A stretch of 64,000 nt of DNA from Escherichia coli (lineage in GTDB: Bacteria; Pseudomonadota; Gammaproteobacteria; Enterobacterales; Enterobacteriaceae): the NCBI RefSeq assembly GCF_003790525.1, contig NZ_CP033635.1. The stretch is one strand, 5' to 3'. The notes under the pieces were generated by a model that was not told the DNA's origin, ran no database searches, and saw nothing but the letters and a program-made list of their open reading frames with translations. This document shows positions 5,056 to 19,074 of this stretch, in pieces. Position numbers and translations under genes: made by a program. Each line of letters starts with the position of its first letter. Positions within the stretch are counted from its first letter, which is position 1.

Positions 5056-6141
5056 ATGAAGACGTTTCCTCTGCAAAGCCTGACGCTTATTGAGGCGCAG
5101 CAAAAGCAGTTTGCGCTGGTGGATAGCATTTGTCGCCATTTTCCCGGCAGCGAGTTTCTTGCTGGCGGTGATTTAGGCTTAACGCCGGGGCTGAATCAAC
5201 CGCGCATTACCCAGCGAGTGGAACAGGTGCTGGCTGATGCATTTCACGCACAGGCTGCAGCGCTGGTACAGGGCGCGGGTACTGGCGCGATCCGTGCGGC
5301 GTTGGCGGCTTTGCTCAAACCGGGGCAGCGTCTTCTGGTGCATGACGCGCCTGTTTACCCGACGACTCAGGTCATTATTGAGCAGATGGGGCTGACGCTT
5401 ATTACTGCTAATTTCAATGACCTGTCGGCACTTAAGCAGGTCGTCGACGAGCAACAACCGGATGCGGCGCTGGTGCAGCATACGCGCCAGCAGCCGCAGG
5501 ACGGCTACATTCTGGCAGATGTGCTGGCAACGTTGCGCTCGGCAGGTGTTCCAGCCTTAACCGATGATAACTATGCGGTGATGAAGGTGGCGCGCATTGG
5601 CTGTGAATGCGGGGCGAATGTCTCGACATTTTCCTGCTTCAAGCTATTTGGGCCAGAGGGTGTTGGCGCGGTGGTAGGCGATGCCGATGTTATTAGCCGG
5701 ATTCGCGCCACGCTCTATTCCGGCGGCAGCCAGGTTCAGGGCGCGCAGGCGCTGGAAGTCTTGCGTGGTCTGGTGCTCGCGCCAGTGATGCACGCGGTGC
5801 AGGCGGGGGTATCTGAACGGTTGCTGGCTTTGCTTAACGGCGGCGCGGTGGCGGAAGTGAAAAGCGCCGTCATTGCCAATGCACAGTCGAAGGTATTGAT
5901 TGTGGAGTTTCATCAGCCGATTGCCGCCAGAGTGCTGGAAGAGGCGCAGAAACTCGGTGCCTTGCCTTACCCGGTTGGTGCAGAGTCGAAATATGAAATC
6001 CCGCCGCTCTTTTATCGACTTTCCGGAACGTTTCGCCAGGCGAATCCGCAGTTAGAACATTGCGCGATTCGCATTAACCCAAATCGCAGCGGTGAAGAGA
6101 CGGTATTGCGGATTTTGCGCGAGAGTATTGCCGACGTTTAA
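5056..6141 (+). CDS. yhfS: YhfS, PLP-dependent transferase-like protein
   Basis: 361-aa ORF, last gene of the cluster. Confidence 0.85.
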   Translation: MKTFPLQSLTLIEAQQKQFALVDSICRHFPGSEFLAGGDLGLTPGLNQPRITQRVEQVLADAFHAQAAALVQGAGTGAIRAALAALLKPGQRLLVHDAPVYPTTQVIIEQMGLTLITANFNDLSALKQVVDEQQPDAALVQHTRQQPQDGYILADVLATLRSAGVPALTDDNYAVMKVARIGCECGANVSTFSCFKLFGPEGVGAVVGDADVISRIRATLYSGGSQVQGAQALEVLRGLVLAPVMHAVQAGVSERLLALLNGGAVAEVKSAVIANAQSKVLIVEFHQPIAARVLEEAQKLGALPYPVGAESKYEIPPLFYRLSGTFRQANPQLEHCAIRINPNRSGEETVLRILRESIADV

Positions 6142-6182
6142 TTCTGGGAACGATGTTTTTCGAAGAGTATGGAGAAAAAATA

Positions 6183-6206
6183 CGCCCTCGGAAAATCTCG
6201 AGGGCG
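6183..6206 (-). terminator. Stem-loop (CGCCCTCG-N8-CGAGGGCG) with T-tract on the minus strand; probable yhfL terminator
   Basis: Perfect 8-bp inverted repeat flanked by an A-run on the plus strand; lies in the short yhfS-yhfL spacer. Confidence 0.5.
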
Positions 6207-6247
6207 TCAGGCAATTAAATCAGCATCTGCCAATTTCTGTCAGAGAC

Positions 6248-6415
6248 TTACTGTGCAGTAGGACCGCAACCGCCAATGATTTTAGAAATAGAAATAGCTG
6301 GGTGCAGCAGGTAGTCGTAAGAGCAGTTCTTATCACGGTTTTCAATATGACCAGTACATGCAGTTAACGTAGCCAGTACCGCACCTACCAGTGCAACTTT
6401 AATAAATTTGTTCAT
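6248..6415 (-). CDS. yhfL: YhfL, small lipoprotein (55 aa)
   Basis: Minus-strand ORF MNKFIKVALVGAVLATLTACTGH... with lipobox LTAC; below the ORF-track size cutoff. Confidence 0.75.
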   Translation of the reverse strand: MNKFIKVALVGAVLATLTACTGHIENRDKNCSYDYLLHPAISISKIIGGCGPTAQ

Positions 6416-6631
6416 TTACATTCCCTATGTATTATATATTGATTAATATTCATTGATTATATGAATATAAGCAGACTGCTCATTAAGAATGATACAGGAA
6501 TATTTAATTGGCGTCAGTGAACGAATGACTTAATTTTGTAAGTCGCTGTAACGGTGAATATAACCCATTAGCAGATAATATTTATTAAGGGGGGTATTTT
6601 TATCTGCTGAATATATAAAGAGAGTTGTAAA

Positions 6632-6656
6632 CGAAAAAGGCCAGAATTCTCTGGCC
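6632..6656 (-). terminator. Intrinsic terminator downstream of cysG
   Basis: Hairpin GGCCAGAGAATTCTGGCC followed by T-tract on the minus strand, 10 nt after the cysG stop. Confidence 0.6.
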
Positions 6657-6665
6657 CTGGTTAAA

Positions 6666-8039
6666 TTAATGGTTAGAGAACCAGTTCAATTTATCGCGCA
6701 GGCCAACAACCCGACCAATAATAATTAGCGATGGACTGTTCATTTGCTGCGCCAGTTCGCCCAGCTGCGTGAGCGTACCGTCAATCACGCGCTGCGTGAC
6801 TGCCGTTCCGTTTTCGACAATTGCCACCGGCATTTCGCCAGGCATACCGTGTTCAATCAGCTTTTGCTGAATAGTCGCGGCCTGATTCAACCCCATATAG
6901 AACACCAGCGTCTGTTTTTCTGCCGCCAGGTTTTCCCAGTCCAGTTCGCCACCGGTTTTTAAGTGTCCGGTAATTAAGCGTACGCTCTGGGCATAATCGC
7001 GATGCGTGAGCGGAATACCCGAATAGGCAGAGCAACCAGAAGCTGCGGTAATACCCGGAACCACCGAGAACGGAATGCCTGCATTGCACAGTGTTTCCAG
7101 CTCTTCGCCACCACGGCCAAAAATAAACGGATCGCCGCCTTTCAGTCGCACCACGCGTTTGCCTTTTTGCGCTTCCCGCAGCAGGATCTGGTTAATCTCT
7201 TCCTGCGGTACGCAGTGGTATCCCGCGCGTTTGCCGACGAAAACGCGATCAGCATCGCGGCGTACCAGATTCATAATATCGTCAGAAACCAGACGGTCGT
7301 AGACCACCACATCTGCCTGCTGAATTTGTTGCAGTCCTTTCAGTGTCAGCAGCCCGGCATCGCCCGGACCTGCGCCAACCAGCACCACTTCACCGCGATG
7401 GTCGAGCGGTTCGTTGATTAATTGTTCGGTCGTTTCAGTAATGGCTTTCTGATCGTTGTTTGCCAGCGACTGCGCCAGACGGTCATTAACGAACAGTTTT
7501 TCCCAGAAACGGCGACGTTCACCCATTGTGGCGAACTGTTGTTTCACTCGACCGCGTAATTGCCCGGCGTATTTCGCTACCTGGCCCAGATGCAACGGCA
7601 GCAGTGATTCAAGTTTTTCACGCAACAGGCGTGCCAGAACCGGAGAGGTGCCGCCAGAGGAGACCGCGACCATGAGCGGTGAGCGGTCAATAATTGACGG
7701 CATAATAAAGCTGGCGGCTTTCGGCGCATCGACCACGTTACAGAAGATGCGACGAGCTTCAGCGGCTTCACTGACGCGCTGGTTAAGCGCGTCATCATCT
7801 GTCGCTGCAATCGCCAGCCAGCAGGTGTCGAGAAGGCTTTCATCAAATGGCCCTTCGACGAGGGTTAACATGCCTGCATCTGCCCATGCGGTGAACTGTG
7901 GAATAAACGCTAATGCATTCACCGTTAAGCGAGCGCCTGCGTCTAACAGCAACCTTGCTTTGCGTTCCGCGACATCACCACCGCCGACAATCAGACAGTC
8001 GCGATCGCGTAATTGGCAAAATATAGGCAAATGATCCAC
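6666..8039 (-). CDS. cysG: Siroheme synthase (uroporphyrinogen-III methyltransferase / precorrin-2 dehydrogenase / ferrochelatase)
   Basis: 457-aa [30 protein letters not shown]...; follows nirC as in the nirBDC-cysG operon. Confidence 0.95.
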
Positions 8040-8057
8040 GTAAAAACCCCTTAGTAA

Positions 8058-8864
8058 TTAACCGGCAGCTGTTTCAGTTTGATTAAATTTGTCCGCAACC
8101 GGACGATTCGCTTTCGGCGTAGCATACCAATAACCCAATCCCATGAATACGGCACCTGATAAAGTATTACCCAGCGTCACCCACAGCAGGTTATGACCAA
8201 TACCCGCCAGCGTGTAGGCTTCGCTGTGGTTGCCAAACCAGGAGAGGGCGAACAGCGTCATGTTCGCGATGGAGTGCTCGTAGCCGGACGCGATAAATGC
8301 CAGCAGACACCACCAGATAGCGATAAATTTCGCCGCCCCTTCAGTGCGCAGCGCCATCCAGATAGCCAGGCAAACCAGCCAGTTACACAATGCACCTTTG
8401 AAGAACAGTACCATTGCCGGTGCAGTGGTTTTAGCCAGCGCGACGGAGTGAACGATGCTGGTATCTACCGGCAGCAGGCTACCGCCGCCCCAGCTATAGA
8501 GCATGGCAACAAAGACGGAACCAACCAGGTTACCCAGCCAGGTTTGCGGCAGGATTGCCCACATTTGCCCGTGGCTGATAGTGCCCGCTTTCACTCCAAA
8601 GGTGAGGAACATGGTGTGTCCGGTGAACAGTTCAGAACCAGCAATAATGACCAGCGTTAAGGCGATACCAAAGGTCGCGCCCATCACCAGAGGACGTACG
8701 GACGGGTCGAGCAAATTACCGAGCGTGAAAATCAGGATGATCCCAAGACCCACATACGCCCCCGCCATTGCGGAGCTGACCCAGAAGCCGAGCGGGTTAT
8801 TTGCCGACAGGCGTGCAATGCGCGCAGCGTTAGCCGCACACTTATTAATAGTGTCTGTAAACAT
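8058..8864 (-). CDS. nirC: Nitrite transporter NirC (formate/nitrite transporter family)
   Basis: 268-aa hydrophobic ORF in nirBDC order. Confidence 0.95.
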   Translation of the reverse strand: MFTDTINKCAANAARIARLSANNPLGFWVSSAMAGAYVGLGIILIFTLGNLLDPSVRPLVMGATFGIALTLVIIAGSELFTGHTMFLTFGVKAGTISHGQMWAILPQTWLGNLVGSVFVAMLYSWGGGSLLPVDTSIVHSVALAKTTAPAMVLFFKGALCNWLVCLAIWMALRTEGAAKFIAIWWCLLAFIASGYEHSIANMTLFALSWFGNHSEAYTLAGIGHNLLWVTLGNTLSGAVFMGLGYWYATPKANRPVADKFNQTETAAG

Positions 8865-8988
8865 TTGATTATCCTTTAAAAAATAAAAACAAAAAATAAA
8901 ACAAAAAGTTTAAAAAATGTCCTGCAATATACCAAGGTTATTACAGGACCATGCAAAAAGGGGAGGCATTGTGCCTCCCGTTAAAACA

Positions 8989-9315
8989 TTAACCGCGTAG
9001 CTGCACCACGCCGTCTTTCACTCGCGCGTCGTAATGCTTGACGGAAAACTGTTCGTCTTCCATGCACAAGCCGTCGCTTAAGCGAAAACGCTGTTTTTTC
9101 AGCGGGCTGGCGACCCACAGCTCGCCCTGGTGTTCCGCAATCAGCCCGCGTGACAGCACGCTGGACTCGAAGAACGGGTCGATGTTGCTGATCGCAAACA
9201 CCTGGTCGCTGTGATACGGGCGGAAAATTGCTACCTGCTCGTCACCTAACAGCGCGCAGACGCCGGTTTCAGGCAGGATGTCATCGATTTTGCAGATGTC
9301 TTTCCACTGGCTCAT
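8989..9315 (-). CDS. nirD: Nitrite reductase small subunit NirD
   Basis: 108-aa ORF; start overlaps nirB stop. Confidence 0.95.
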   Translation of the reverse strand: MSQWKDICKIDDILPETGVCALLGDEQVAIFRPYHSDQVFAISNIDPFFESSVLSRGLIAEHQGELWVASPLKKQRFRLSDGLCMEDEQFSVKHYDARVKDGVVQLRG

Positions 9316-11855
9316 GCGTTGTCCTCCACCAGAGTTACCGGGATACGTTCATACGGCGTTGCCGGACGGTGCTGTTCGCGCTCTGGCACCATCTGCACGT
9401 TCGGGTCACGCTTGTCGCTGTTGATGAAGTGTTTGAAGCGAGTCTGCGCGGACGGTGTATTGACCGTTTCAGTCCACTCACACACTACCGCTTCACGCAG
9501 GCGCGCCATCTCTTCTTCCAGATGTGCGTTCAGCCCCAGTTTGTCGTCAATGATCACCGCTTTCAGGTAATCGATGCCACCTTCGAGGTTTTCTAACCAC
9601 GGCGCGGTACGCGTCAGTTTGTCGGCAGTACGGATGTAGAACATCATGAAGCGGTCAAGATATTTAATCAGCGTTTCGCGATCGATATCCGCTGCCAGCA
9701 GATCCGCATGACGCGGTTTCATGCCGCCGTTACCGCAAACATACAGGTTCCAGCCTTTTTCGGTGGCGATGATACCCACGTCTTTACCCTGAGCTTCTGA
9801 ACATTCACGGGTACAGCCAGAGACACCGAACTTCATTTTGTGCGGCGTACGGATGCCTTTGTAGCGGTTTTCCAGTTCCACGCCGAGGCCGACGCTGTCG
9901 CCAACGCCGTAGCGGCACCAGGTGCTACCCACGCAGGTTTTCGCCATACGCAGTGCTTTCGCATAGGCATGACCGGTTTCGAAGCCGGCTTCAATCAGCT
10001 GACGCCAGATTTCCGGCAGATCGTCTTTCTGTGCGCCAAACATCGCCAGGCGCTGAGAGCCGGTGATTTTGGTGTAGAGATTAAATTCACGCGCGATACG
10101 ACCTACTGCCATCAGCCCTTCCGGGGTGATTTCACCGCCCGGAGAACGCGGGATCACCGAGTAGGTGCCGTCTTTCTGGATGTTAGCGAGGAAGTTGTCG
10201 TTTGAATCCTGCAGCGGAGTATGTTCCGGCTTCAGAATGTATTCGTTCCAGCAGGAGGCCAGCAGCGAACCGACGGTCGGTTTACAAACTTCACAACCGT
10301 AGCCTTTGCCGTGTTTCGCCAGCAGTTCTTCGAAGGTTTTAATGCCTTCAACGCGGATCAAATGGAACAGTTCCTGACGCGAATAAGCAAAGTGTTCGCA
10401 CAGGTTGTTGTTAACTTCGATGCCCTGTTTCGCCAGTTCCGCGTTCAGTACCTGAGTGACCAGCGGGATACAGCCACCGCAGCCAGTACCCGCTTTGGTT
10501 TCAGCTTTCAGCGCCGCAACGGTGTGGCAGCCTTTGTTGATAGCTGCAATCAGATCGCCTTTGGTGACGTCGAAGCAGGAGCAGATTTGCGCGCTGTCCG
10601 GCAGTTTATCAACACCGATAGACGGCTTACCGCTACCTGAGTGCGCCGGCAGAATCAGAGAATCCGGGTTTTCCGGCAGTTCGATAGCGTTCAGCACCAG
10701 TTGCAGCAGGTTGCCGTAGTCGCTGGTATCGCCCACCAGTACCGCACCGAGCAGGGTTTTGTTGTCTTCGCTGACAATCAGGCGTTTGTAGATCTCTTTG
10801 CTTTCGTCGAGGTAAACGTAGCTACGTGCGCCAGGCGTGCGACCATGCGCATCACCAATACCGCCTACGTCTACGCCCAGCAGTTTCAGCTTAGCGCTAA
10901 GGTCAGCACCTTCAAAGGCGTTTTCGCTACCAAGAATATGGTCAACGGCGACCTGCGCCATTTTGTAGCCTGGTGCTACCAGACCAAATACACGGTTGTT
11001 CCAGCTTGCGCATTCACCGATGGCGTAGATATCCGGATCGGAAGTCTGGCAGGAATCATTGATGACAATACCCCCACGCGGAGCAACGTCCAGACCACAC
11101 TGGGTTGCCAGCTTATCGCGCGGACGGATACCGGTTGAGAAGACGATAAAGTCGACTTCCAGCTCGCTACCGTCGGCAAAACGCATGGTTTTACGCGCTT
11201 CGACACCTTCCTGCACAATCTCAAGGGTGTTTTTGCTGGTGTGAACGCGCACGCCCATACTTTCGATTTTGCGACGCAGCTGCTCGCCACCCATCTGATC
11301 AAGCTGTTCCGCCATCAGCATAGGGGCAAATTCGATAACGTGGGTTTCAATACCTAAGTTTTTCAGCGCGCCAGCGGCTTCCAGACCTAACAGGCCGCCA
11401 CCAACAACGGCACCGCGTTTGCTGCGACGGGCACAGGATTCAATGGCGTTGAGGTCTTCAATGGTGCGATAGACAAAGCAGTCCTGAGTATCAGAACCTT
11501 TGATTGGCGGGATCCACGGGTAGGAACCGGTTGCCATGATCAGCTTGTCATAAAAAACGGTACGTCCGGCGCTGGAGTGAATCACCTTCTCCTGACGGTT
11601 GATGGTGATAGCGCGTTCACCGACCAGAACTTTGATGCCGTGTTTCTCGTAGAAGCCTTCGCGCACCAGCGACAGCTCTTCGGCGGTGTGGTGAGAGAAG
11701 TAAGACGAGAGGTGTACGCGGTCATAAGCGATGCGCGGTTCTTCACAGAAAACGGTAATATCAAAGTTGGCCGCATCAGATTTATCAAGAAGATCTTCGA
11801 TAAAGCGATGGCCGACCATACCGTTACCGATAATTGCGAGTCTGACTTTGCTCAT
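9312..11855 (-). CDS. nirB: NADH-dependent nitrite reductase large subunit NirB
   Basis: 847-aa ORF MSKVRLAIIGNGMVGHRF... Confidence 0.97.
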   Translation of the reverse strand: MSKVRLAIIGNGMVGHRFIEDLLDKSDAANFDITVFCEEPRIAYDRVHLSSYFSHHTAEELSLVREGFYEKHGIKVLVGERAITINRQEKVIHSSAGRTVFYDKLIMATGSYPWIPPIKGSDTQDCFVYRTIEDLNAIESCARRSKRGAVVGGGLLGLEAAGALKNLGIETHVIEFAPMLMAEQLDQMGGEQLRRKIESMGVRVHTSKNTLEIVQEGVEARKTMRFADGSELEVDFIVFSTGIRPRDKLATQCGLDVAPRGGIVINDSCQTSDPDIYAIGECASWNNRVFGLVAPGYKMAQVAVDHILGSENAFEGADLSAKLKLLGVDVGGIGDAHGRTPGARSYVYLDESKEIYKRLIVSEDNKTLLGAVLVGDTSDYGNLLQLVLNAIELPENPDSLILPAHSGSGKPSIGVDKLPDSAQICSCFDVTKGDLIAAINKGCHTVAALKAETKAGTGCGGCIPLVTQVLNAELAKQGIEVNNNLCEHFAYSRQELFHLIRVEGIKTFEELLAKHGKGYGCEVCKPTVGSLLASCWNEYILKPEHTPLQDSNDNFLANIQKDGTYSVIPRSPGGEITPEGLMAVGRIAREFNLYTKITGSQRLAMFGAQKDDLPEIWRQLIEAGFETGHAYAKALRMAKTCVGSTWCRYGVGDSVGLGVELENRYKGIRTPHKMKFGVSGCTRECSEAQGKDVGIIATEKGWNLYVCGNGGMKPRHADLLAADIDRETLIKYLDRFMMFYIRTADKLTRTAPWLENLEGGIDYLKAVIIDDKLGLNAHLEEEMARLREAVVCEWTETVNTPSAQTRFKHFINSDKRDPNVQMVPEREQHRPATPYERIPVTLVEDNA

Positions 11856-11913
11856 TTTTGCCTCGATTTCTTTTCTATTACCGCCTACCTTAACGATTCA
11901 GCAACCCCGCTTA

Positions 11914-11927
11914 TTGATGTAAATCAA
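11914..11927 (-). promoter_or_regulatory. FNR box (TTGAT-N4-ATCAA) of the nirB promoter
   Basis: Perfect TTGATgtaaATCAA palindrome about 60 bp upstream of the nirB start codon. Confidence 0.75.
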
Positions 11928-11940
11928 ATTCACCTTTATA

Positions 11941-11957
11941 TACTCCTTAAGGGGTAT
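11941..11957 (-). promoter_or_regulatory. NarL/NarP 7-2-7 heptamer pair upstream of the FNR box
   Basis: TACTCCT-TA-AGGGGTA inverted heptamers; matches the known nirB promoter architecture. Confidence 0.55.
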
Positions 11958-12116
11958 ATTGCTGATTTGTATAAATTTTCTTAAGTCACGGAATTGTCTG
12001 ACATTTCATGTTTGTACAAAAAACAGACAAATTGAGCGGGTTTATAGAAATAGATGTACGTAGCGCGGTAAGAGAGGAAAAGGCCGGACGACGATAGTGC
12101 CGCCCGGCATGAGCAA

Positions 12117-13298
12117 TTAATGAGAGGTCAGGGTGTTATGCTGACGGTGACGGCTGACGAAACCTAACAGGAAGCACATCACAAAGACGACAGCGTACAG
12201 ACCGTTTGCCGTCAGCAGCGCCGCCTGCGGACCGCTATGTTCAACAATCGGGCCGGTAACCACAAAGGTCAACATAGTACCGATGGTCCCGCAGGTCAGG
12301 ACAAAGTTAACCAGTTTTGGCGACGGTACTTTGGTCTGCTGTGAACCCAAAGTGATGATGGTGGTATAGATCGCGCTGGAGAAGAAGCCCAGGGCGAGAA
12401 TTGACCACGCCATATGTGCCGGTGTTCCGGTGTTAAAGACGTACATCAGAATCGCAGCCAGACCAGCCAGTACGGTCAGAATGCGTTGCAAATCAAAGAA
12501 GCGAAGAATAAAGCTGAACGCCCACATGCCGACCATGTATGACATCCAGAAGTTACTCACCAGCGTGCCCGCGTCGTTCAGGCTCATGCCCAGGCCTTTG
12601 GCATACTCAGGCACCCAGGAGATAAAACCTAACTGACCGAGGATGTAGCACAGTGCCGCAATGGAGAGAAACAGCACGCCGATCCCCCATTTTTCTTTCG
12701 CTACCGGAGCGTCCGTTTTTGGCGCATGTTTACCCAGCGCCGGGAACTCACAGCCGAAGGTCAGAATAAAGATAGCGACGTACACCAGCCCGATGCAGGC
12801 ATAAACCCAGTACCACTCAATGCTGCGCGCCAGCAGAAACGCGGCGATCATTGGGAAAATCATCCCGGCCATACTGAAGAAGGAGTCGGTAAATAACAGG
12901 CGTGAACCGCGCTGACGTCCTTCATACATTTGTGTTACCAGGAATGTACCAATCGACATGGTGATGCCGCTGACCACCCCGAGAATGAACATCGCCGCCG
13001 AGAACAGTGCCAGGCTGTGGCTGAACATCAAACCGGCAACCGCCAGCACCATCAGGAGAAAGCCAAAACGTAACTGCGTTTTCAACGGGACGATTTCCAT
13101 CAGCCAGGCGTTGAGGAAGATAGAGATTAAAATGCCGGCGTTGAGGAAGGTGAAGGTATTACTCATACTGGAAACAGGCAGATTGAAATAATCGGCGATA
13201 TTTCCCATCACCATCCCGGTGACAATAACCAACGCACCGGTCAGTGCGTAGGAGAGAAAGCTAATCCATGTGAGCTTGATGCGATTGCTGTTAGTCAT
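12117..13298 (-). CDS. tsgA: MFS transporter TsgA
   Basis: 393-aa [24 protein letters not shown]..., multi-TM. Confidence 0.9.
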
Positions 13299-13420
13299 GA
13301 TTGGCCTGCGTTCAAAAATAAAATGGCATAGCGGGATATGCCGCGAGCGGGCGATTTTAGGTGATTTTGTGATCTGTTTAAATGTTTTATTGCAATCGGT
13401 TGCTAAATTGCATTTTAAGA

Positions 13421-13436
13421 GGTGATTTTGATCACA
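13421..13436 (+). promoter_or_regulatory. CRP-like site (GGTGA-N6-TCACA) in the tsgA-ppiA intergenic region
   Basis: Near-perfect palindrome; ppiA is known to be CRP-regulated. Confidence 0.45.
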
Positions 13437-13559
13437 GAATAAAAAGTGATCGTCAGGTTACATATATTTCAGATACGTAAAATTAGGTAAAGGGATGGCC
13501 TTGTTCTTGAAGGCTATTTAGAATCTCTTCACTTGCTTTTTTTCTGCTCTGTTTGTTAA

Positions 13560-14141
<582 letters not shown>

Positions 14142-14245
14142 TGATTTCTCGCGCGGGCAATCTTGCCCGCGCTTCTGCTCTCCCGGCGTAACCCGGATTT
14201 GCCGCTTATACTTGTGGCAAATGGACACGTTCAGGGAGGCATCAA

Positions 14246-14413
14246 GTGAAGAAACTCACCGATAAGCAAAAGTCCCGTCTCTGGGAGCTTCAGCGTAATC
14301 GTAATTTCCAGGCCAGTCGCCGTCTTGAAGGCGTCGAGATGCCTTTAGTCACTCTTACTGCCACAGAGGCTTTAGCGCGCCTTGAAGCGCTGAGGAGGCA
14401 CTATGAGCGATAA
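14246..14413 (+). CDS. yhfG: YhfG, small antitoxin-like partner of Fic (55 aa)
   Basis: GTG-initiated [24 protein letters not shown]...HYER whose stop overlaps the fic start by 11 nt; below the ORF-track cutoff. Confidence 0.75.
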
Positions 14414-15005
14414 ATTCGGCGAAGGGCGCGATCCGTATCTTTATCCTGGCCTTGATATCATGCGTAACCGGCTGAACATCCACCAGCAGCAGCGGCTGGA
14501 ACAGGCCGCTTACGAAATGACGGCGCTGCGTGCTGCGACCATTGAGCTTGGTCCGCTGGTGCGCGGTTTACCGCATTTGCGCACTATCCATCGCCAGCTG
14601 TATCAGGATATTTTCGACTGGGCGGGGCAACTGCGTGAAGTTGATATTTATCAGGGCGATACGCCGTTCTGCCACTTTGCTTATATCGAAAAAGAGGGCA
14701 ATGCCCTGATGCAGGATCTGGAGGAAGAAGGTTATCTGGTTGGCCTGGAGAAAGCGAAGTTCGTCGAGCGGCTGGCGCATTACTATTGTGAAATCAACGT
14801 GCTGCATCCCTTCCGGGTGGGAAGTGGTCTGGCACAGCGGATCTTCTTCGAGCAACTGGCGATTCATGCCGGATATCAACTGAGCTGGCAGGGTATCGAA
14901 AAAGAGGCCTGGAATCAGGCAAATCAGAGTGGGGCAATGGGGGATCTCACCGCGCTGCAGACGATATTTAGCAAAGTGGTAAGCGAAGCCGGGGAATCTG
15001 AGTAA
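14403..15005 (+). CDS. fic: Fic-domain protein (cell filamentation protein Fic)
   Basis: 200-aa ORF with FIC-like motif [12 protein letters not shown]. Confidence 0.9.
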
Positions 15006-15036
15006 AATAGCGCGGTTCTTTCGTACCGGAGCCGCC

Positions 15037-15600
15037 ATGATCCTGCTTATAGATAACTACGATTCTTTTACCTGGAACCTCTACCAGTACTTTTGTGAAC
15101 TGGGGGCGGATGTGCTGGTTAAGCGCAACGATGCGTTGACGCTGGCGGATATCGACGCCCTTAAACCACAAAAAATTGTCATCTCACCCGGCCCCTGTAC
15201 GCCAGATGAAGCCGGGATCTCCCTTGACGTTATTCGCCACTATGCCGGGCGCTTGCCGATTCTTGGCGTCTGCCTCGGTCATCAGGCAATGGCGCAGGCA
15301 TTTGGCGGTAAAGTTGTGCGCACCGCAAAGGTCATGCACGGCAAAACCTCGCCGATAACACATAACGGTGAGGGCGTATTTCGGGGGCTGGCAAATCCAC
15401 TTACCGTGACACGCTACCATTCGCTGGTGGTGGAACCTGACTCATTACCAGCGTGCTTTGACGTGACGGCCTGGAGCGAAACCCGCGAGATTATGGGGAT
15501 TCGCCATCGCCAGTGGGATCTGGAAGGTGTGCAGTTCCATCCAGAAAGTATTCTTAGCGAACAAGGACATCAACTGCTGGCTAATTTCCTGCATCGCTGA
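15037..15600 (+). CDS. pabA: Aminodeoxychorismate synthase component II (glutamine amidotransferase)
   Basis: 187-aa [22 protein letters not shown]... Confidence 0.95.
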
Positions 15601-15670
15601 TTTCTGATTGCTATTAAGTGATTTTTTATGCATATTTTGTGATTATAATTTCACATTGATTTATGCGTAA

Positions 15671-16909
<1,239 letters not shown>

Positions 16910-16920
16910 GACGCATCAGG

Positions 16921-16965
16921 CAAAAGATGTCGGATGCGGCGTGAACGCTGTATCCGATGGTTTAG
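16921..16965. repeat. REP-like palindromic element between convergent argD and yhfK
   Basis: Sequence GTCGGATGCGGCGTGAACGCTGTATCCGAT resembles the REP consensus. Confidence 0.4.
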
Positions 16966-16971
16966 CCTGCA

Positions 16972-19074
16972 TTACGCCTTCGAATCCCGCAACTTGCGAC
17001 TCAGCCAAATCCCGTGATGCGGTCGCTGACGCCATGCCATCGACGAAATGGTGTGCATGGTGTTCAGATGACCAATAACCCGCTGTAAATGCTGCTCCAG
17101 CGTACCTGCCGCGCCTTCGTGCGGCTGCATCTCCGGCGCATCCATGATATTGGCATCGCCAGAACTACCCGGTTCGTCATACTCCAGTCGCTGCTGACAA
17201 CGCTGAATGGCGATTTCACAAGACTGTAAATATTCTTGCGCCAGTTCAGGTGGCAATGCCCGGTGTTCCCGTGCCAGCGTGGTCATGGCATTGATATGTT
17301 CAACTATAAACTGACTGTGCGTTACCCACAGTTTCATATCTGCCAGATAATGGCTGTTGAATGCCGGTTCCTGCATCGCCTGATTCAATGAGTTATACAG
17401 AGTGTTATGCGCCTGATTCACCCGCATTCGCTGCCAGGCCAGTGGCGTTGGTTGCGGGTCCTCGCTCAGAATCAAGCGAATCGCGTCCTGATAGGCTTCT
17501 AAAGCGTCATGGGCGTTCTTACGCAATAACCCGCTCTGCCACTGCGGCCACAGCCAGACAGTACCGCCGAAAGCAATTAAACAACCAATAATGGTATCGA
17601 TAAGACGCGGAAGGATGTACTGCTCACCGTTCAGCCACAACAGTTGCAGGGTATACACTGCGGTAATGGTAAAACCGACCGTCGCCCAGCCGTAGTTTTT
17701 GCGCAATATCAGGTAGCTGGCAAGGGTGGTAATCAGCATCAAGGTCAGGGTGTAACCTTCGGGAATTTTAAAGTGCAGCGCCACGCCCGCAATGATTAAC
17801 CCGACCACGGTTCCCACGGAGCGATTCACAATCCTCAGACGGGTTGCGCCATAGCCATTTTGCGTCACCAGCAATACCGTCATCAGGATCCAGTACGACT
17901 TCGGCAGATGCAGCGCGGTGCCCATCAGGCTGGCAACGCTTAACATCACACTGAGTCGTCCGGCATTGCGTAGCGCCGGAGACTTTAGTGACAAATAACT
18001 TTTCAGCGCCGGAAGTAACGGCATTCGCCGCTGTTTATCGGCCAGTAAGTCACGGGCATAGAGCGGTTTTTGGGTGCGCAGCACGCGGGCAATGCGGCTG
18101 AAATGCCAGTAGCAGAATTGCCCAACCGGATTATCCGGGTGTTGGCGGGCGATTTTTTCCAGTGCGCCAATTTGCTTTTCCATCGTAAAACGCGTCGGCA
18201 GGCGATGGTAAAGAATGTCATCAGCCAGCACGCGCAGGCGAGCGGCGACGGTTTGCGCATTCCAGCGGATAACTTCTTCCGCATGGCTACGCTCGACCAG
18301 CTTTTGCACCTCTTCCGGCTGATGCAAACTGACCGAAATATGTTCCTGCAAATCCAGCGCCTCCTGGAAAATACGCAGCATCCGCTTGTAATCGGTATTA
18401 TTTTGCGCGGAAAGCATATGCATTTGCTGATAGCACTGGGTAATTAAATCGACCGCTTTTTGCTGGCGCACCAGCAGCGGCGGCAGCGCTTTTTCAGGGT
18501 CGGTGTGCTGGGTAAGCAGGCTGTATTTGGCTTCACAGTAATCTGCCAGTTCACGGTACAGCAGACTTAGTGACTCGCGTAGCGGTTGTTCGCGCCAGAT
18601 CCAGAACCAAAACCAGTTAAACAATCCGTACCACAAAGTGCCCAGCGCATAGATGAGCAACGGTTCCCAGACCGGCATGTATCCCGCCAGACTGAGGGTA
18701 AAAATGGCGGCGAGCAGCGATGCGGGAAGCAATTTTGCGTGCAATGGCCCCAGCTCAGCAGTGACGCCAAGTACCAGCGTTAATCCGGTCAGCAAAAAGG
18801 GCAGGGGAACATCTTTTGCCAGTAGCACCTGTGTCAGCAAGCTACAGGTGGCAAACAGCGACGCACCAATGATTAAGCGTTTGAAAAAACGTTTATGAGG
18901 CGTATCAAGGCCCGCAATATTGCAACAGGCAGGAACGAGGGAGAAGAGCAGACCGAATCGTAATTCGCCAAGCATTAACCCAACGGCCACGGGCAAACAT
19001 AGCACCAGCGTTTGTCGCAGTGCATAGTTAATATCGGGGTGATAAATCAGTCTGCGCCACATCGGGGGAAACAA
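16972..19074 (-). CDS. yhfK: YhfK, large inner-membrane protein (YccS/YhfK family)
   Basis: 700-aa ORF with hydrophobic N- and central domains. Confidence 0.9.
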   Translation of the reverse strand: MFPPMWRRLIYHPDINYALRQTLVLCLPVAVGLMLGELRFGLLFSLVPACCNIAGLDTPHKRFFKRLIIGASLFATCSLLTQVLLAKDVPLPFLLTGLTLVLGVTAELGPLHAKLLPASLLAAIFTLSLAGYMPVWEPLLIYALGTLWYGLFNWFWFWIWREQPLRESLSLLYRELADYCEAKYSLLTQHTDPEKALPPLLVRQQKAVDLITQCYQQMHMLSAQNNTDYKRMLRIFQEALDLQEHISVSLHQPEEVQKLVERSHAEEVIRWNAQTVAARLRVLADDILYHRLPTRFTMEKQIGALEKIARQHPDNPVGQFCYWHFSRIARVLRTQKPLYARDLLADKQRRMPLLPALKSYLSLKSPALRNAGRLSVMLSVASLMGTALHLPKSYWILMTVLLVTQNGYGATRLRIVNRSVGTVVGLIIAGVALHFKIPEGYTLTLMLITTLASYLILRKNYGWATVGFTITAVYTLQLLWLNGEQYILPRLIDTIIGCLIAFGGTVWLWPQWQSGLLRKNAHDALEAYQDAIRLILSEDPQPTPLAWQRMRVNQAHNTLYNSLNQAMQEPAFNSHYLADMKLWVTHSQFIVEHINAMTTLAREHRALPPELAQEYLQSCEIAIQRCQQRLEYDEPGSSGDANIMDAPEMQPHEGAAGTLEQHLQRVIGHLNTMHTISSMAWRQRPHHGIWLSRKLRDSKA

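What the first reader, a model, noticed from the sequence alone, without database searches (positions are those of the whole stretch)
6142..6247. frl (fructoselysine) operon absent: yhfS and yhfL are only 106 bp apart
In the K-12 gene order as I recall it, frlABCDR lies between yhfL and yhfS. Here a 106-bp spacer holding one perfect 8-bp stem-loop joins them, with no gene fragments or repeat scars. This is an indel boundary that separates strains with and without the ability to use fructoselysine, and it shows whether the yhf operon is an independent unit.
Basis: partly seen in the sequence, partly recalled or inferred. Interest (0 to 1): 0.4.

Follow-up and report, generated by a model that had tools for sequence, protein, structure and literature searches.

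The report
Ancestral empty site of frl operon
This E. coli strain (SMS-3-5) lacks the fructoselysine (frl) operon because its yhfS-yhfL spacer is the original, never-occupied site into which other E. coli lineages received the operon; the strain-to-strain difference is real but already known and ordinary.

Summary
The window is E. coli SMS-3-5. yhfS (5056-6141, +) and yhfL (6248-6415, -) converge across a 106-bp spacer. K-12 carries frlRDCBA there instead, in a 5,319-bp intergenic stretch.

Of 5,426 complete E. coli genomes, 2,107 have the short spacer and 3,300 carry frlBCD. Of the carriers, 342 (O157:H7 type) have frl but no yhf operon.

Outgroups give the direction. E. albertii, E. whittamii, two further divergent Escherichia lineages and about 25 other Enterobacteriaceae species all have yhfS next to yhfL or cysG. 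None has frl there. The short spacer is therefore ancestral. frl is an old 5.24-kb insertion that replaced 30 bp (window 6143-6172). It has no repeats, IS element, integrase or unusual composition.

The stem-loop (6182-6207) is not a junction scar. Read on the minus strand it is followed by ATTTTTTCTC, so it is the yhfL intrinsic terminator. It is present in both alleles and keeps its pairing through compensatory changes across Escherichia. The breakpoint lies just beyond its T-tract.

Absence of frl from phylogroup B2 is already published. Verdict: real, well explained, already known, low interest.

The parts
5056..6141 (+). yhfS, a PLP-dependent aminotransferase-fold enzyme and the last gene of the yhfZYXW-php-yhfUTS operon
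   Evidence: 361-aa ORF. RefSeq annotates it as yhfS in SMS-3-5. It is 95% identical in protein to K-12 YhfS.
6142..6247 (.). 106-bp convergent intergenic spacer between yhfS and yhfL: the unoccupied frl site
   Evidence: It is homologous along its whole length to the spacer of E. albertii, E. whittamii, Escherichia sp. MOD1-EC7003 and strain SCPM-O-B-8794.
6143..6172 (.). 30-bp segment found only in the empty-site allele; in K-12 it is replaced by 5,242 bp (frlR-frlA, a Box C-like element, a REP and the frlA promoter region)
   Evidence: Homology to K-12 stops at 6132-6147 and resumes at 6173. No significant counterpart exists at either end of the K-12 insert.
6172..6207 (-). Intrinsic terminator of yhfL: 9-bp G+C-rich stem (6182-6190 with 6199-6207), 8-nt loop, then ATTTTTTCTC (6181 down to 6172) on the minus strand
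   Evidence: Terminator scan. RNA fold of the yhfL 3' region gives -24.7 kcal/mol, z = -2.3. 96.7% of pair cells are paired across 11 Escherichia haplotypes, with changes on both sides at stem pairs 52:62 and 54:60; slid controls give 33-47%.
6217..6236 (-). Second, A+U-rich 8-bp hairpin in the yhfL 3' untranslated region (minus strand AAATTGGC-AGAT-GCTGATTT)
   Evidence: It is in the minimum-free-energy fold. Helix 1 is 96.6% paired, with 2 pairs changed on both sides. Its function is unknown.
6248..6415 (-). yhfL, a 55-aa protein of the YhfL family (its start MNKFIKVALVGAVLATLTAC looks like a lipoprotein signal peptide; read by eye, not tested)
   Evidence: The protein is identical to the K-12 one, WP_001031834.1.
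6666..8039 (-). cysG, the conserved flank that anchors the locus
   Evidence: 100% protein identity to K-12.

Best explanation
The 106-bp spacer is the ancestral, unoccupied intergenic region between two convergent genes, yhfS and yhfL. It is not a deletion scar.

Its one strong structure is the yhfL rho-independent terminator on the minus strand: a G+C-rich hairpin followed by a U-tract. This terminator is kept in both alleles.

In the ancestor of part of the E. coli lineage, a 5.24-kb cassette was inserted. It carried frlABCDR and now also holds a Box C-like element and a REP next to frlR. It landed between the yhfS stop codon and the end of the yhfL terminator and replaced about 30 bp. The mechanism was illegitimate, non-site-specific recombination: there are no target duplications, IS element, integrase or tRNA. 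This step is inferred.

Both alleles have since persisted in E. coli, and they move between backgrounds by homologous recombination in the flanks. SMS-3-5 (phylogroup F, from memory), B2 strains and some others keep the empty allele. They therefore lack the FrlA transporter, FrlD kinase, FrlB deglycase and FrlC epimerase, and are predicted not to use fructoselysine or psicoselysine.
For: Shown:
- K-12 has frlRDCBA between yhfS and yhfL.
- 2,107 of 5,426 genomes have a contiguous yhfS-yhfL, and 3,300 carry frlBCD, in a single copy in all but one genome and never on plasmids.
- Of the yhfS loci from other species, 29 have yhfS followed directly by yhfL or cysG. They include E. albertii, E. whittamii, two other divergent Escherichia lineages, more than 10 Citrobacter, Klebsiella spallanzanii, Buttiauxella and Cedecea. 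Only the divergent lineage E69 has frl there.
- The empty spacer aligns end to end across Escherichia species.
- K-12 and E69 share identical junction sequences on both sides, and O157 shares the yhfL-side junction, which indicates a single event.
- E69 lies outside E. coli proper: cysG+nirC are 95% identical, against 97% within E. coli. Its frl genes are 91-96% identical to K-12's, matching the flanks, so the insertion is old.
- The frl-less strains O104:H21 and G5 have a yhfS 3' end 99.7-99.9% identical to frl+ K-12, so the indel is exchanged by recombination.
- Terminator.
- E. coli-type frl clusters are patchy and partly plasmid-borne elsewhere: FrlB is 87-88.5% identical on Pantoea plasmids, 84% in a Serratia sp. 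in an unrelated context, and 83% in a Sodalis sp..
- Published models report frl missing from B2 strains and predict no growth on fructoselysine (PMC5996543).
Against: - The junction sequences alone do not give a direction. Each allele has a private segment (30 bp against 5,242 bp), so either direction needs a replacement.
- The insert has no compositional signature of foreign origin: 53.8% G+C against 53.5% for the yhf operon.
- In Sodalis sp. C49, frlABCDR lies next to trpS in the same orientation as in O157:H7. Its Frl proteins are about as diverged as the vertically inherited neighbours: 60-83% against 55-85% for most of them (DamX 35%). An old presence of frl somewhere in the tsgA-trpS interval of Enterobacterales therefore cannot be excluded.
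- frl+ E69 branches outside frl-less E. coli lineages. This requires either a long-lived polymorphism or later allele exchange.
- Terminator activity and the growth phenotype were not measured.
Confidence: 0.85

Rival explanations
1. Derived loss: the ancestor of SMS-3-5 and of B2 strains carried frl between yhfS and yhfL, deleted it cleanly, and the 106-bp spacer is the deletion joint.
For: frl+ E69 branches outside E. coli proper, so frl is at least as old as E. coli. frl also lies in the same tsgA-trpS neighbourhood in a Sodalis sp.. Published work describes B2 strains as 'missing' frl.
Against: The 30 bp at 6143-6172 are absent from the frl+ allele but homologous to the spacers of E. albertii, E. 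whittamii, MOD1-EC7003 and SCPM-O-B-8794. A deletion cannot recreate that sequence. 29 outgroup loci lack frl at this site.
Confidence: 0.07
2. Re-acquired empty allele: the lineage of SMS-3-5 was once frl+, then regained the ancestral empty spacer by homologous recombination with a frl-less donor. This is loss by allele replacement, not by deletion.
For: Such exchange does occur. O104:H21 and G5 carry an empty spacer inside a K-12-like yhfS haplotype, 99.7-99.9% identical. yhfS alleles are mosaic and unusually diverged: 92-95% among E. coli, against 97% for cysG. SMS-3-5 and strain 201609 share the spacer and right flank at 99.7% but differ by 6.6% in the 3' part of yhfS.
Against: The SMS-3-5 spacer variant (TCTGGGAACGATGTTTTTCGAAGAGTATGG) is distinct from every other sampled empty allele except its close relative 201609, so no donor can be identified. 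Simple vertical retention needs fewer events.
Confidence: 0.2
3. The stem-loop is a recombination or attachment element (REP-like or att-like) that targeted the frl cassette to this site.
For: The yhfL-side breakpoint lies immediately next to the hairpin's T-tract, at 6172/6173. The frl+ allele carries REP and Box C-like repeats at its other end.
Against: The hairpin occurs once in 64 kb. It has no Rfam match. It sits 41 nt downstream of the yhfL stop codon with a U-tract on that strand. Its stem varies by compensatory changes, as expected for a structure selected at the RNA level. It is intact and single-copy in both alleles rather than duplicated at both insert ends. No integrase or transposase is present.
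Confidence: 0.03

Closest known systems
frl-negative E. coli of phylogroup B2 (Fang et al. 2018, BMC Syst Biol 12:66, PMC5996543)
   Same: The same allele class. yhfS and yhfL are adjacent with a spacer of about 106-107 bp in NU14, and contiguously in Nissle, UTI89-type and ST131-type strains. The frl transporter, kinase and deglycase are absent, with predicted inability to use fructoselysine or psicoselysine.
   Different: SMS-3-5 is not B2 (phylogroup F, from memory). Its spacer and yhfS haplotype differ from the B2 ones: about 95% identity in the 3' part of yhfS, and a different 30-bp variant. The paper does not describe the junction or polarise the event.
E. coli K-12 frlABCDR locus (Wiame et al. 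2002 and 2004; Graf von Armansperg et al., bioRxiv 10.1101/2020.01.13.904318)
   Same: The flanks are the same (yhfS, yhfL, cysG) and so is the yhfL terminator, which in K-12 separates yhfL from the frlA promoter region.
   Different: K-12 has 5,242 bp where the window has 30 bp. The K-12 hairpin has a mismatch at stem pair 8.
E. coli O157:H7 arrangement trpS-frlRDCBA-yhfL
   Same: The yhfL-side junction and terminator are the same.
   Different: It is the opposite combination: frl present (frlD annotated as a pseudogene) and the whole yhf operon absent. 342 genomes have it.
Canonical rho-independent terminators between convergent genes
   Same: A G+C-rich 9-bp stem, an 8-nt loop and a run of U, shortly after a stop codon. 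The Citrobacter orthologous spacers carry a different hairpin flanked by A- and T-runs (AAAAACCGGGAA-TTCCCGGTTTTTT) in the same place.
   Different: It looks unidirectional here. On the plus strand (the yhfS side) the hairpin is followed by CAGGCAATTA, not a T-run, and the scan found no plus-strand terminator.

Membership tests
Intrinsic (rho-independent) terminator | G+C-rich hairpin immediately followed by a U-rich tract on the transcribed strand | tested here: met
   Minus strand: ACGCCCTCG-AGATTTTC-CGAGGGCGT, then ATTTTTTCTC. 9 pairs, 7 of them G-C. The region folds at -24.7 kcal/mol.
Intrinsic (rho-independent) terminator | Located just downstream of the stop codon of a gene on the same strand | tested here: met
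   The yhfL stop codon is at 6250-6248 and the stem starts at 6207, 41 nt downstream.
Intrinsic (rho-independent) terminator | Structure conserved by selection (pairing kept through compensatory changes) | tested here: met
   Over 11 Escherichia haplotypes, 96.7% of cells are paired. Pair 52:62 occurs as GC, AU and UA, and pair 54:60 as GC, GU and AU. Slid controls give 33-47% paired. The sequences are related, so this is supportive rather than proof.
Intrinsic (rho-independent) terminator | Transcripts end at the U-tract in vivo | not testable with these tools
   This needs 3'-end mapping (Term-seq) or a reporter read-through assay.
Empty-site allele of the frl presence/absence polymorphism | Orthologous flanks contiguous, with all frl genes absent | tested here: met
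   2,107 genomes share the contiguous form, and 2,126 genomes have no frlBCD match.
Empty-site allele of the frl presence/absence polymorphism | The empty state is ancestral (present in outgroups) | tested here: met
   29 outgroup species loci have yhfS followed by yhfL or cysG, and the Escherichia spacers are homologous.
Empty-site allele of the frl presence/absence polymorphism | Inability to grow on fructoselysine or psicoselysine | not testable with these tools
   Only inferred from gene content and from published metabolic models.
Genomic island or integrative element (applied to the frl cassette) | Integrase or transposase, tRNA or att site, flanking direct repeats, deviant composition | tested here: not met
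   The K-12 insert holds only frlRDCBA in the annotation. No direct repeats occur at its ends. G+C is 53.8%, against 53.5% in the flanks.
REP/BIME or other dispersed palindromic repeat (applied to the stem-loop) | Multiple copies dispersed in the genome | tested here: not met
   One copy in the 64-kb window. The whole genome was not scanned. No Rfam family matched.

The most novel reading that the evidence does not exclude
The trpS-cysG interval may be a long-lived cassette slot of Enterobacterales. Accessory modules are swapped in and out of it by homologous recombination in conserved flanks. The modules seen are the yhf operon, frlABCDR, the bigA adhesin gene and, in a Sodalis sp., another amino-compound cluster. 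On this reading the frl+/frl- pair in E. coli is a polymorphism older than the species, kept by diet- or niche-dependent selection. The raised synonymous divergence of yhfS next to the junction would be its linked footprint.
Probability: 0.3. Interest if true: 0.35.

Novelty: already known. Interest (0 to 1): 0.15.

Why it matters
Fructoselysine is an abundant Amadori product of cooked food, and frl is a repeated target of adaptation of E. coli in the mouse gut (bioRxiv 10.64898/2026.05.27.728231). The presence or absence of frl is therefore a real ecological difference between lineages. It separates B2-type strains from most A, B1 and E strains.

What this analysis adds is modest:
- the direction of the event (insertion, not loss);
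- the exact breakpoints, 1 nt after the yhfS stop codon and just past the yhfL terminator;
- evidence that the insertion is old and is exchanged by recombination;
- evidence that yhf and frl vary independently.

None of this changes current understanding.

Tried and rejected
1. Residual homology. I asked whether the 30-bp empty-site segment survives, diverged, at the frlA-proximal end of the K-12 insert, which would place the insertion exactly at the yhfS stop codon. Anchored global alignments against shuffles gave z = 0.4-3.1 and p = 0.004-0.37. In a scan of the whole insert, the junction-adjacent window ranked only 27th to 741st of 2,074. Not significant, so dropped.

2. Target-site duplication or repeats at the insert ends. 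None found.

3. The O157:H7 yhf deletion as recombination between two Box C or REP copies. The K-12 trpS-yhfZ spacer has REP-like repeats but no Box C-like copy, and no long repeat pair was found. Unresolved and not pursued.

4. Rfam scan of 5800-6800 at E<=1. No match.

5. Salmonella as a comparator for frl. Its 'FrlB' belongs to a PTS-based pathway, not to an frlABCDR operon (PMC10285752), so it was not used.

6. Compositional evidence of foreign origin for frl. None.

7. Assigning phylogroups to all 5,426 genomes. Not possible with these tools, so only named reference strains are cited.

Full report
**1. What is in the sequence**

The window matches E. coli SMS-3-5 (NC_010498.1) at 100% identity over the test stretch. 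The ORF at 5056-6141 (+) encodes a 361-aa protein that RefSeq annotates as yhfS. The ORF at 6248-6415 (-) encodes the 55-aa YhfL. The two genes converge, and the spacer 6142-6247 is 106 bp.

The spacer holds a perfect inverted repeat: CGCCCTCG at 6183-6190 with CGAGGGCG at 6199-6206. It extends to 9 bp (6182-6190 with 6199-6207) around an 8-nt loop. The motif occurs once in 64 kb, against none in 100 shuffles. No Frl protein matches anywhere in the window. The only short repeats near the spacer lie inside the yhfS coding sequence.

An MG1655 derivative has yhfS, frlR, frlD, frlC, frlB, frlA, yhfL, with 5,319 bp between yhfS and yhfL.

**2. The junction**

Homology between the window and K-12 runs through yhfS to the stop codon plus one base (TAAT). 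BLAST extends it to 6132-6147, depending on mismatches. Homology resumes at window 6173 (AGAAA.AAATACGCCCTC...).

Each allele therefore has a private segment. The empty allele has 30 bp (6143-6172). K-12 has 5,242 bp, made up of about 45 bp of unique sequence, a Box C-like repeat (named from memory), a REP-like palindrome, frlR-frlA and the 37% G+C frlA promoter region.

I tested whether the 30 bp survive in diverged form at either end of the insert. They do not, at any convincing level. There is no target duplication, IS element, integrase or tRNA at the insert. Its G+C content (53.8%) equals that of its neighbours.

**3. The stem-loop**

On the minus strand the hairpin is followed by ATTTTTTCTC, and it starts 41 nt after the yhfL stop codon. 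The scan calls it terminator-like, and it dominates the predicted fold of the yhfL 3' region.

It is present in both frl- and frl+ alleles. Across 11 distinct Escherichia haplotypes, 96.7% of the pair cells are paired. The eighth stem pair occurs as G-C, A-U and U-A, and the innermost pair as G-C, G-U and A-U. Sliding the partners drops pairing to 33-47%.

A second, A+U-rich 8-bp hairpin (6217-6236) between the stop codon and the terminator is also conserved, with compensatory changes. Neither hairpin matches an Rfam family.

Citrobacter spacers carry a different hairpin flanked by A- and T-runs at the same place. The role is therefore conserved while the sequence is not.

So the stem-loop is the yhfL intrinsic terminator, not an indel scar. 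The yhfL-side breakpoint lies exactly at the distal end of its T-tract (6172/6173).

**4. Which state is ancestral**

A scan of one genome per species with YhfS returned 80 loci. Mapping K-12 proteins onto them gave a clear pattern:

- The order trpS, yhfZYXW-php-yhfUTS, yhfL and/or cysG, nirC, nirD, with nothing between yhfS and yhfL/cysG, occurs in 29 loci.
- These include E. albertii, E. whittamii, Escherichia sp. MOD1-EC7003 and 'E. coli' SCPM-O-B-8794 (cryptic-clade-level divergence).
- They also include more than ten Citrobacter species, an Enterobacter sp., Klebsiella spallanzanii, Superficieibacter, Pluralibacter, Buttiauxella, Cedecea and others.
- Only one non-K-12 locus, E69, has frl.

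The Escherichia empty spacers align end to end with the window, including the 30-bp segment that frl+ alleles lack. A deletion from a frl+ allele could not recreate that segment. The short spacer is therefore ancestral and frl is the insertion.

**5. Age and spread**

K-12 and E69 share the same junction sequences on both sides, and O157:H7 shares the yhfL-side junction. This indicates one event.

E69 lies outside E. coli proper: cysG+nirC are about 95% identical to E. coli strains, which are about 97% identical to each other. Its frl genes are 91-96% identical to K-12's, the same as its flanks. The insertion is thus at least as old as that split.

Distribution among 5,426 complete E. coli genomes:

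| State | Genomes |
|---|---|
| Contiguous yhfS-yhfL spacer (frl absent) | 2,107 |
| frlBCD present (one place each, two in one genome; none on plasmids) | 3,300 |
| O157:H7-type trpS-frlR junction (frl present, yhf operon absent) | 342 of the 3,300 |
| IS1-associated deletion from yhfZ to cysG | at least 1 |

Named frl- strains include NU14, Nissle, UTI89 and MNCRE44 (B2), CE10 and SMS-3-5 (F), and also O104:H21. Phylogroup labels are from my own knowledge.

The frl- strains O104:H21 and G5 have a yhfS 3' end 99.7-99.9% identical to frl+ K-12.

**6. Origin of the cassette and a caveat**

Outside Escherichia, the closest FrlB proteins found were:

- On Pantoea plasmids, 87-88.5% identical, in an frlABDR cluster without frlC.
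- In a Serratia sp., 84% identical, in an unrelated chromosomal context.
- In Sodalis sp. C49, 83% identical.

This patchy, partly plasmid-borne distribution fits acquisition by transfer.

The caveat is the Sodalis arrangement. There frlABCDR sits next to trpS, in the same orientation and neighbourhood (ppiA-tsgA ... frl-trpS-gph-rpe-dam) as in O157:H7. Its Frl proteins are about as diverged from K-12 as most of the vertically inherited neighbours. An old association of frl with the tsgA-trpS interval in some Enterobacterales cannot be excluded.

C. koseri and Superficieibacter have a bigA adhesin gene between yhfL and cysG. The interval is generally variable.

None of this changes the conclusion for the yhfS-yhfL junction, which is empty in every outgroup that has yhfS.

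**7. Comparison with what is known**

The absence of the frl transporter and operon from phylogroup B2, and the predicted inability of those strains to use fructoselysine and psicoselysine, is published (PMC5996543). Variable frl content within B1 and EHEC lineages is noted in PMC3505186. The regulation of the frlA promoter is described in bioRxiv 10.1101/2020.01.13.904318. frlR and the yhfL/frlA spacer are recurrent adaptive targets in the mouse gut.

The finding is thus an instance of a known polymorphism. The direction, the breakpoints and the terminator assignment are small additions.

**8. Verdict**

- Novelty: already known.
- Interest: 0.15.

The growth phenotype and terminator activity are inferred, not measured.

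Noticed in passing
L083 (E. coli O157:H7 strain 2149) 6776-12244; outside the window: A third allele: trpS is followed directly by frlR-frlA and then yhfL. The whole yhfZ-yhfS operon is absent, and frlD is annotated as a pseudogene with an internal stop. 342 of 5,426 genomes have this trpS-frlR junction. How the yhf deletion arose was not resolved.
   Followed up: partly
L090 (Sodalis sp. C49) 6603-12604: frlABCDR lies next to trpS-gph-rpe-dam, on the tsgA/ppiA side and in the same orientation as in E. coli O157:H7. Its Frl proteins are 60-83% identical to K-12, similar to most of the vertically inherited neighbours. This could be shared ancient synteny or repeated use of the same slot.
   Followed up: partly
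window 5056-6141 (yhfS), especially 5200-6132: yhfS is unusually diverged among E. coli strains: 91-95% nucleotide identity in the last 700 bp, close to the 88-92% seen against cryptic-clade Escherichia. cysG/nirC next door are about 97%. Alleles are mosaic: SMS-3-5 and strain 201609 are 99.7% identical to the right of the spacer but 93.4% in yhfS.
   Followed up: partly
window 6217-6236, minus strand: A second small A+U-rich hairpin (AAATTGGC-AGAT-GCTGATTT) lies between the yhfL stop codon and the terminator. It is conserved with compensatory changes across Escherichia. Its function is unknown.
   Followed up: partly
L001 (K-12) 10087-10237: The K-12 yhfS-frlR spacer contains a Box C-like repeat (GGTCCCCTCGCCCCTTTGGGGAGAGGGTTAGGGTGAGGGG) and a REP-like palindrome. 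Both also sit at the trpS-frlR junction of O157:H7. These repeats caused the many short extra matches in the genome searches.
   Followed up: no
L084 (E. coli strain 102651) 11095-12085: An IS1A copy joins a truncated yhfZ directly to cysG. The rest of the yhf operon, any frl operon and yhfL are missing.
   Followed up: no
L059 (Citrobacter koseri) 11400-17700 and L017 (Superficieibacter electus) 11512-17880: A bigA-type autotransporter adhesin gene lies between yhfL and cysG. It is split into several ORFs in C. koseri. This shows that the trpS-cysG interval takes different cargo in different genera.
   Followed up: partly
L020, L025, L030-L082: The yhf operon, or at least yhfS homologues at 52-70% identity, occurs away from trpS/cysG in Providencia, Photorhabdus, Xenorhabdus, Serratia and Pasteurellaceae. 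yhfS homologues also occur in many Firmicutes and Fusobacteria, so the operon itself is a widely transferred module of unknown function.
   Followed up: no
window 6489-6517, minus strand: The only sigma-70-like promoter match in 5900-6700 (CTGACG-17-TATCAT) lies about 75 nt upstream of the yhfL start codon. It is a candidate yhfL promoter, supported by a consensus match only.
   Followed up: no
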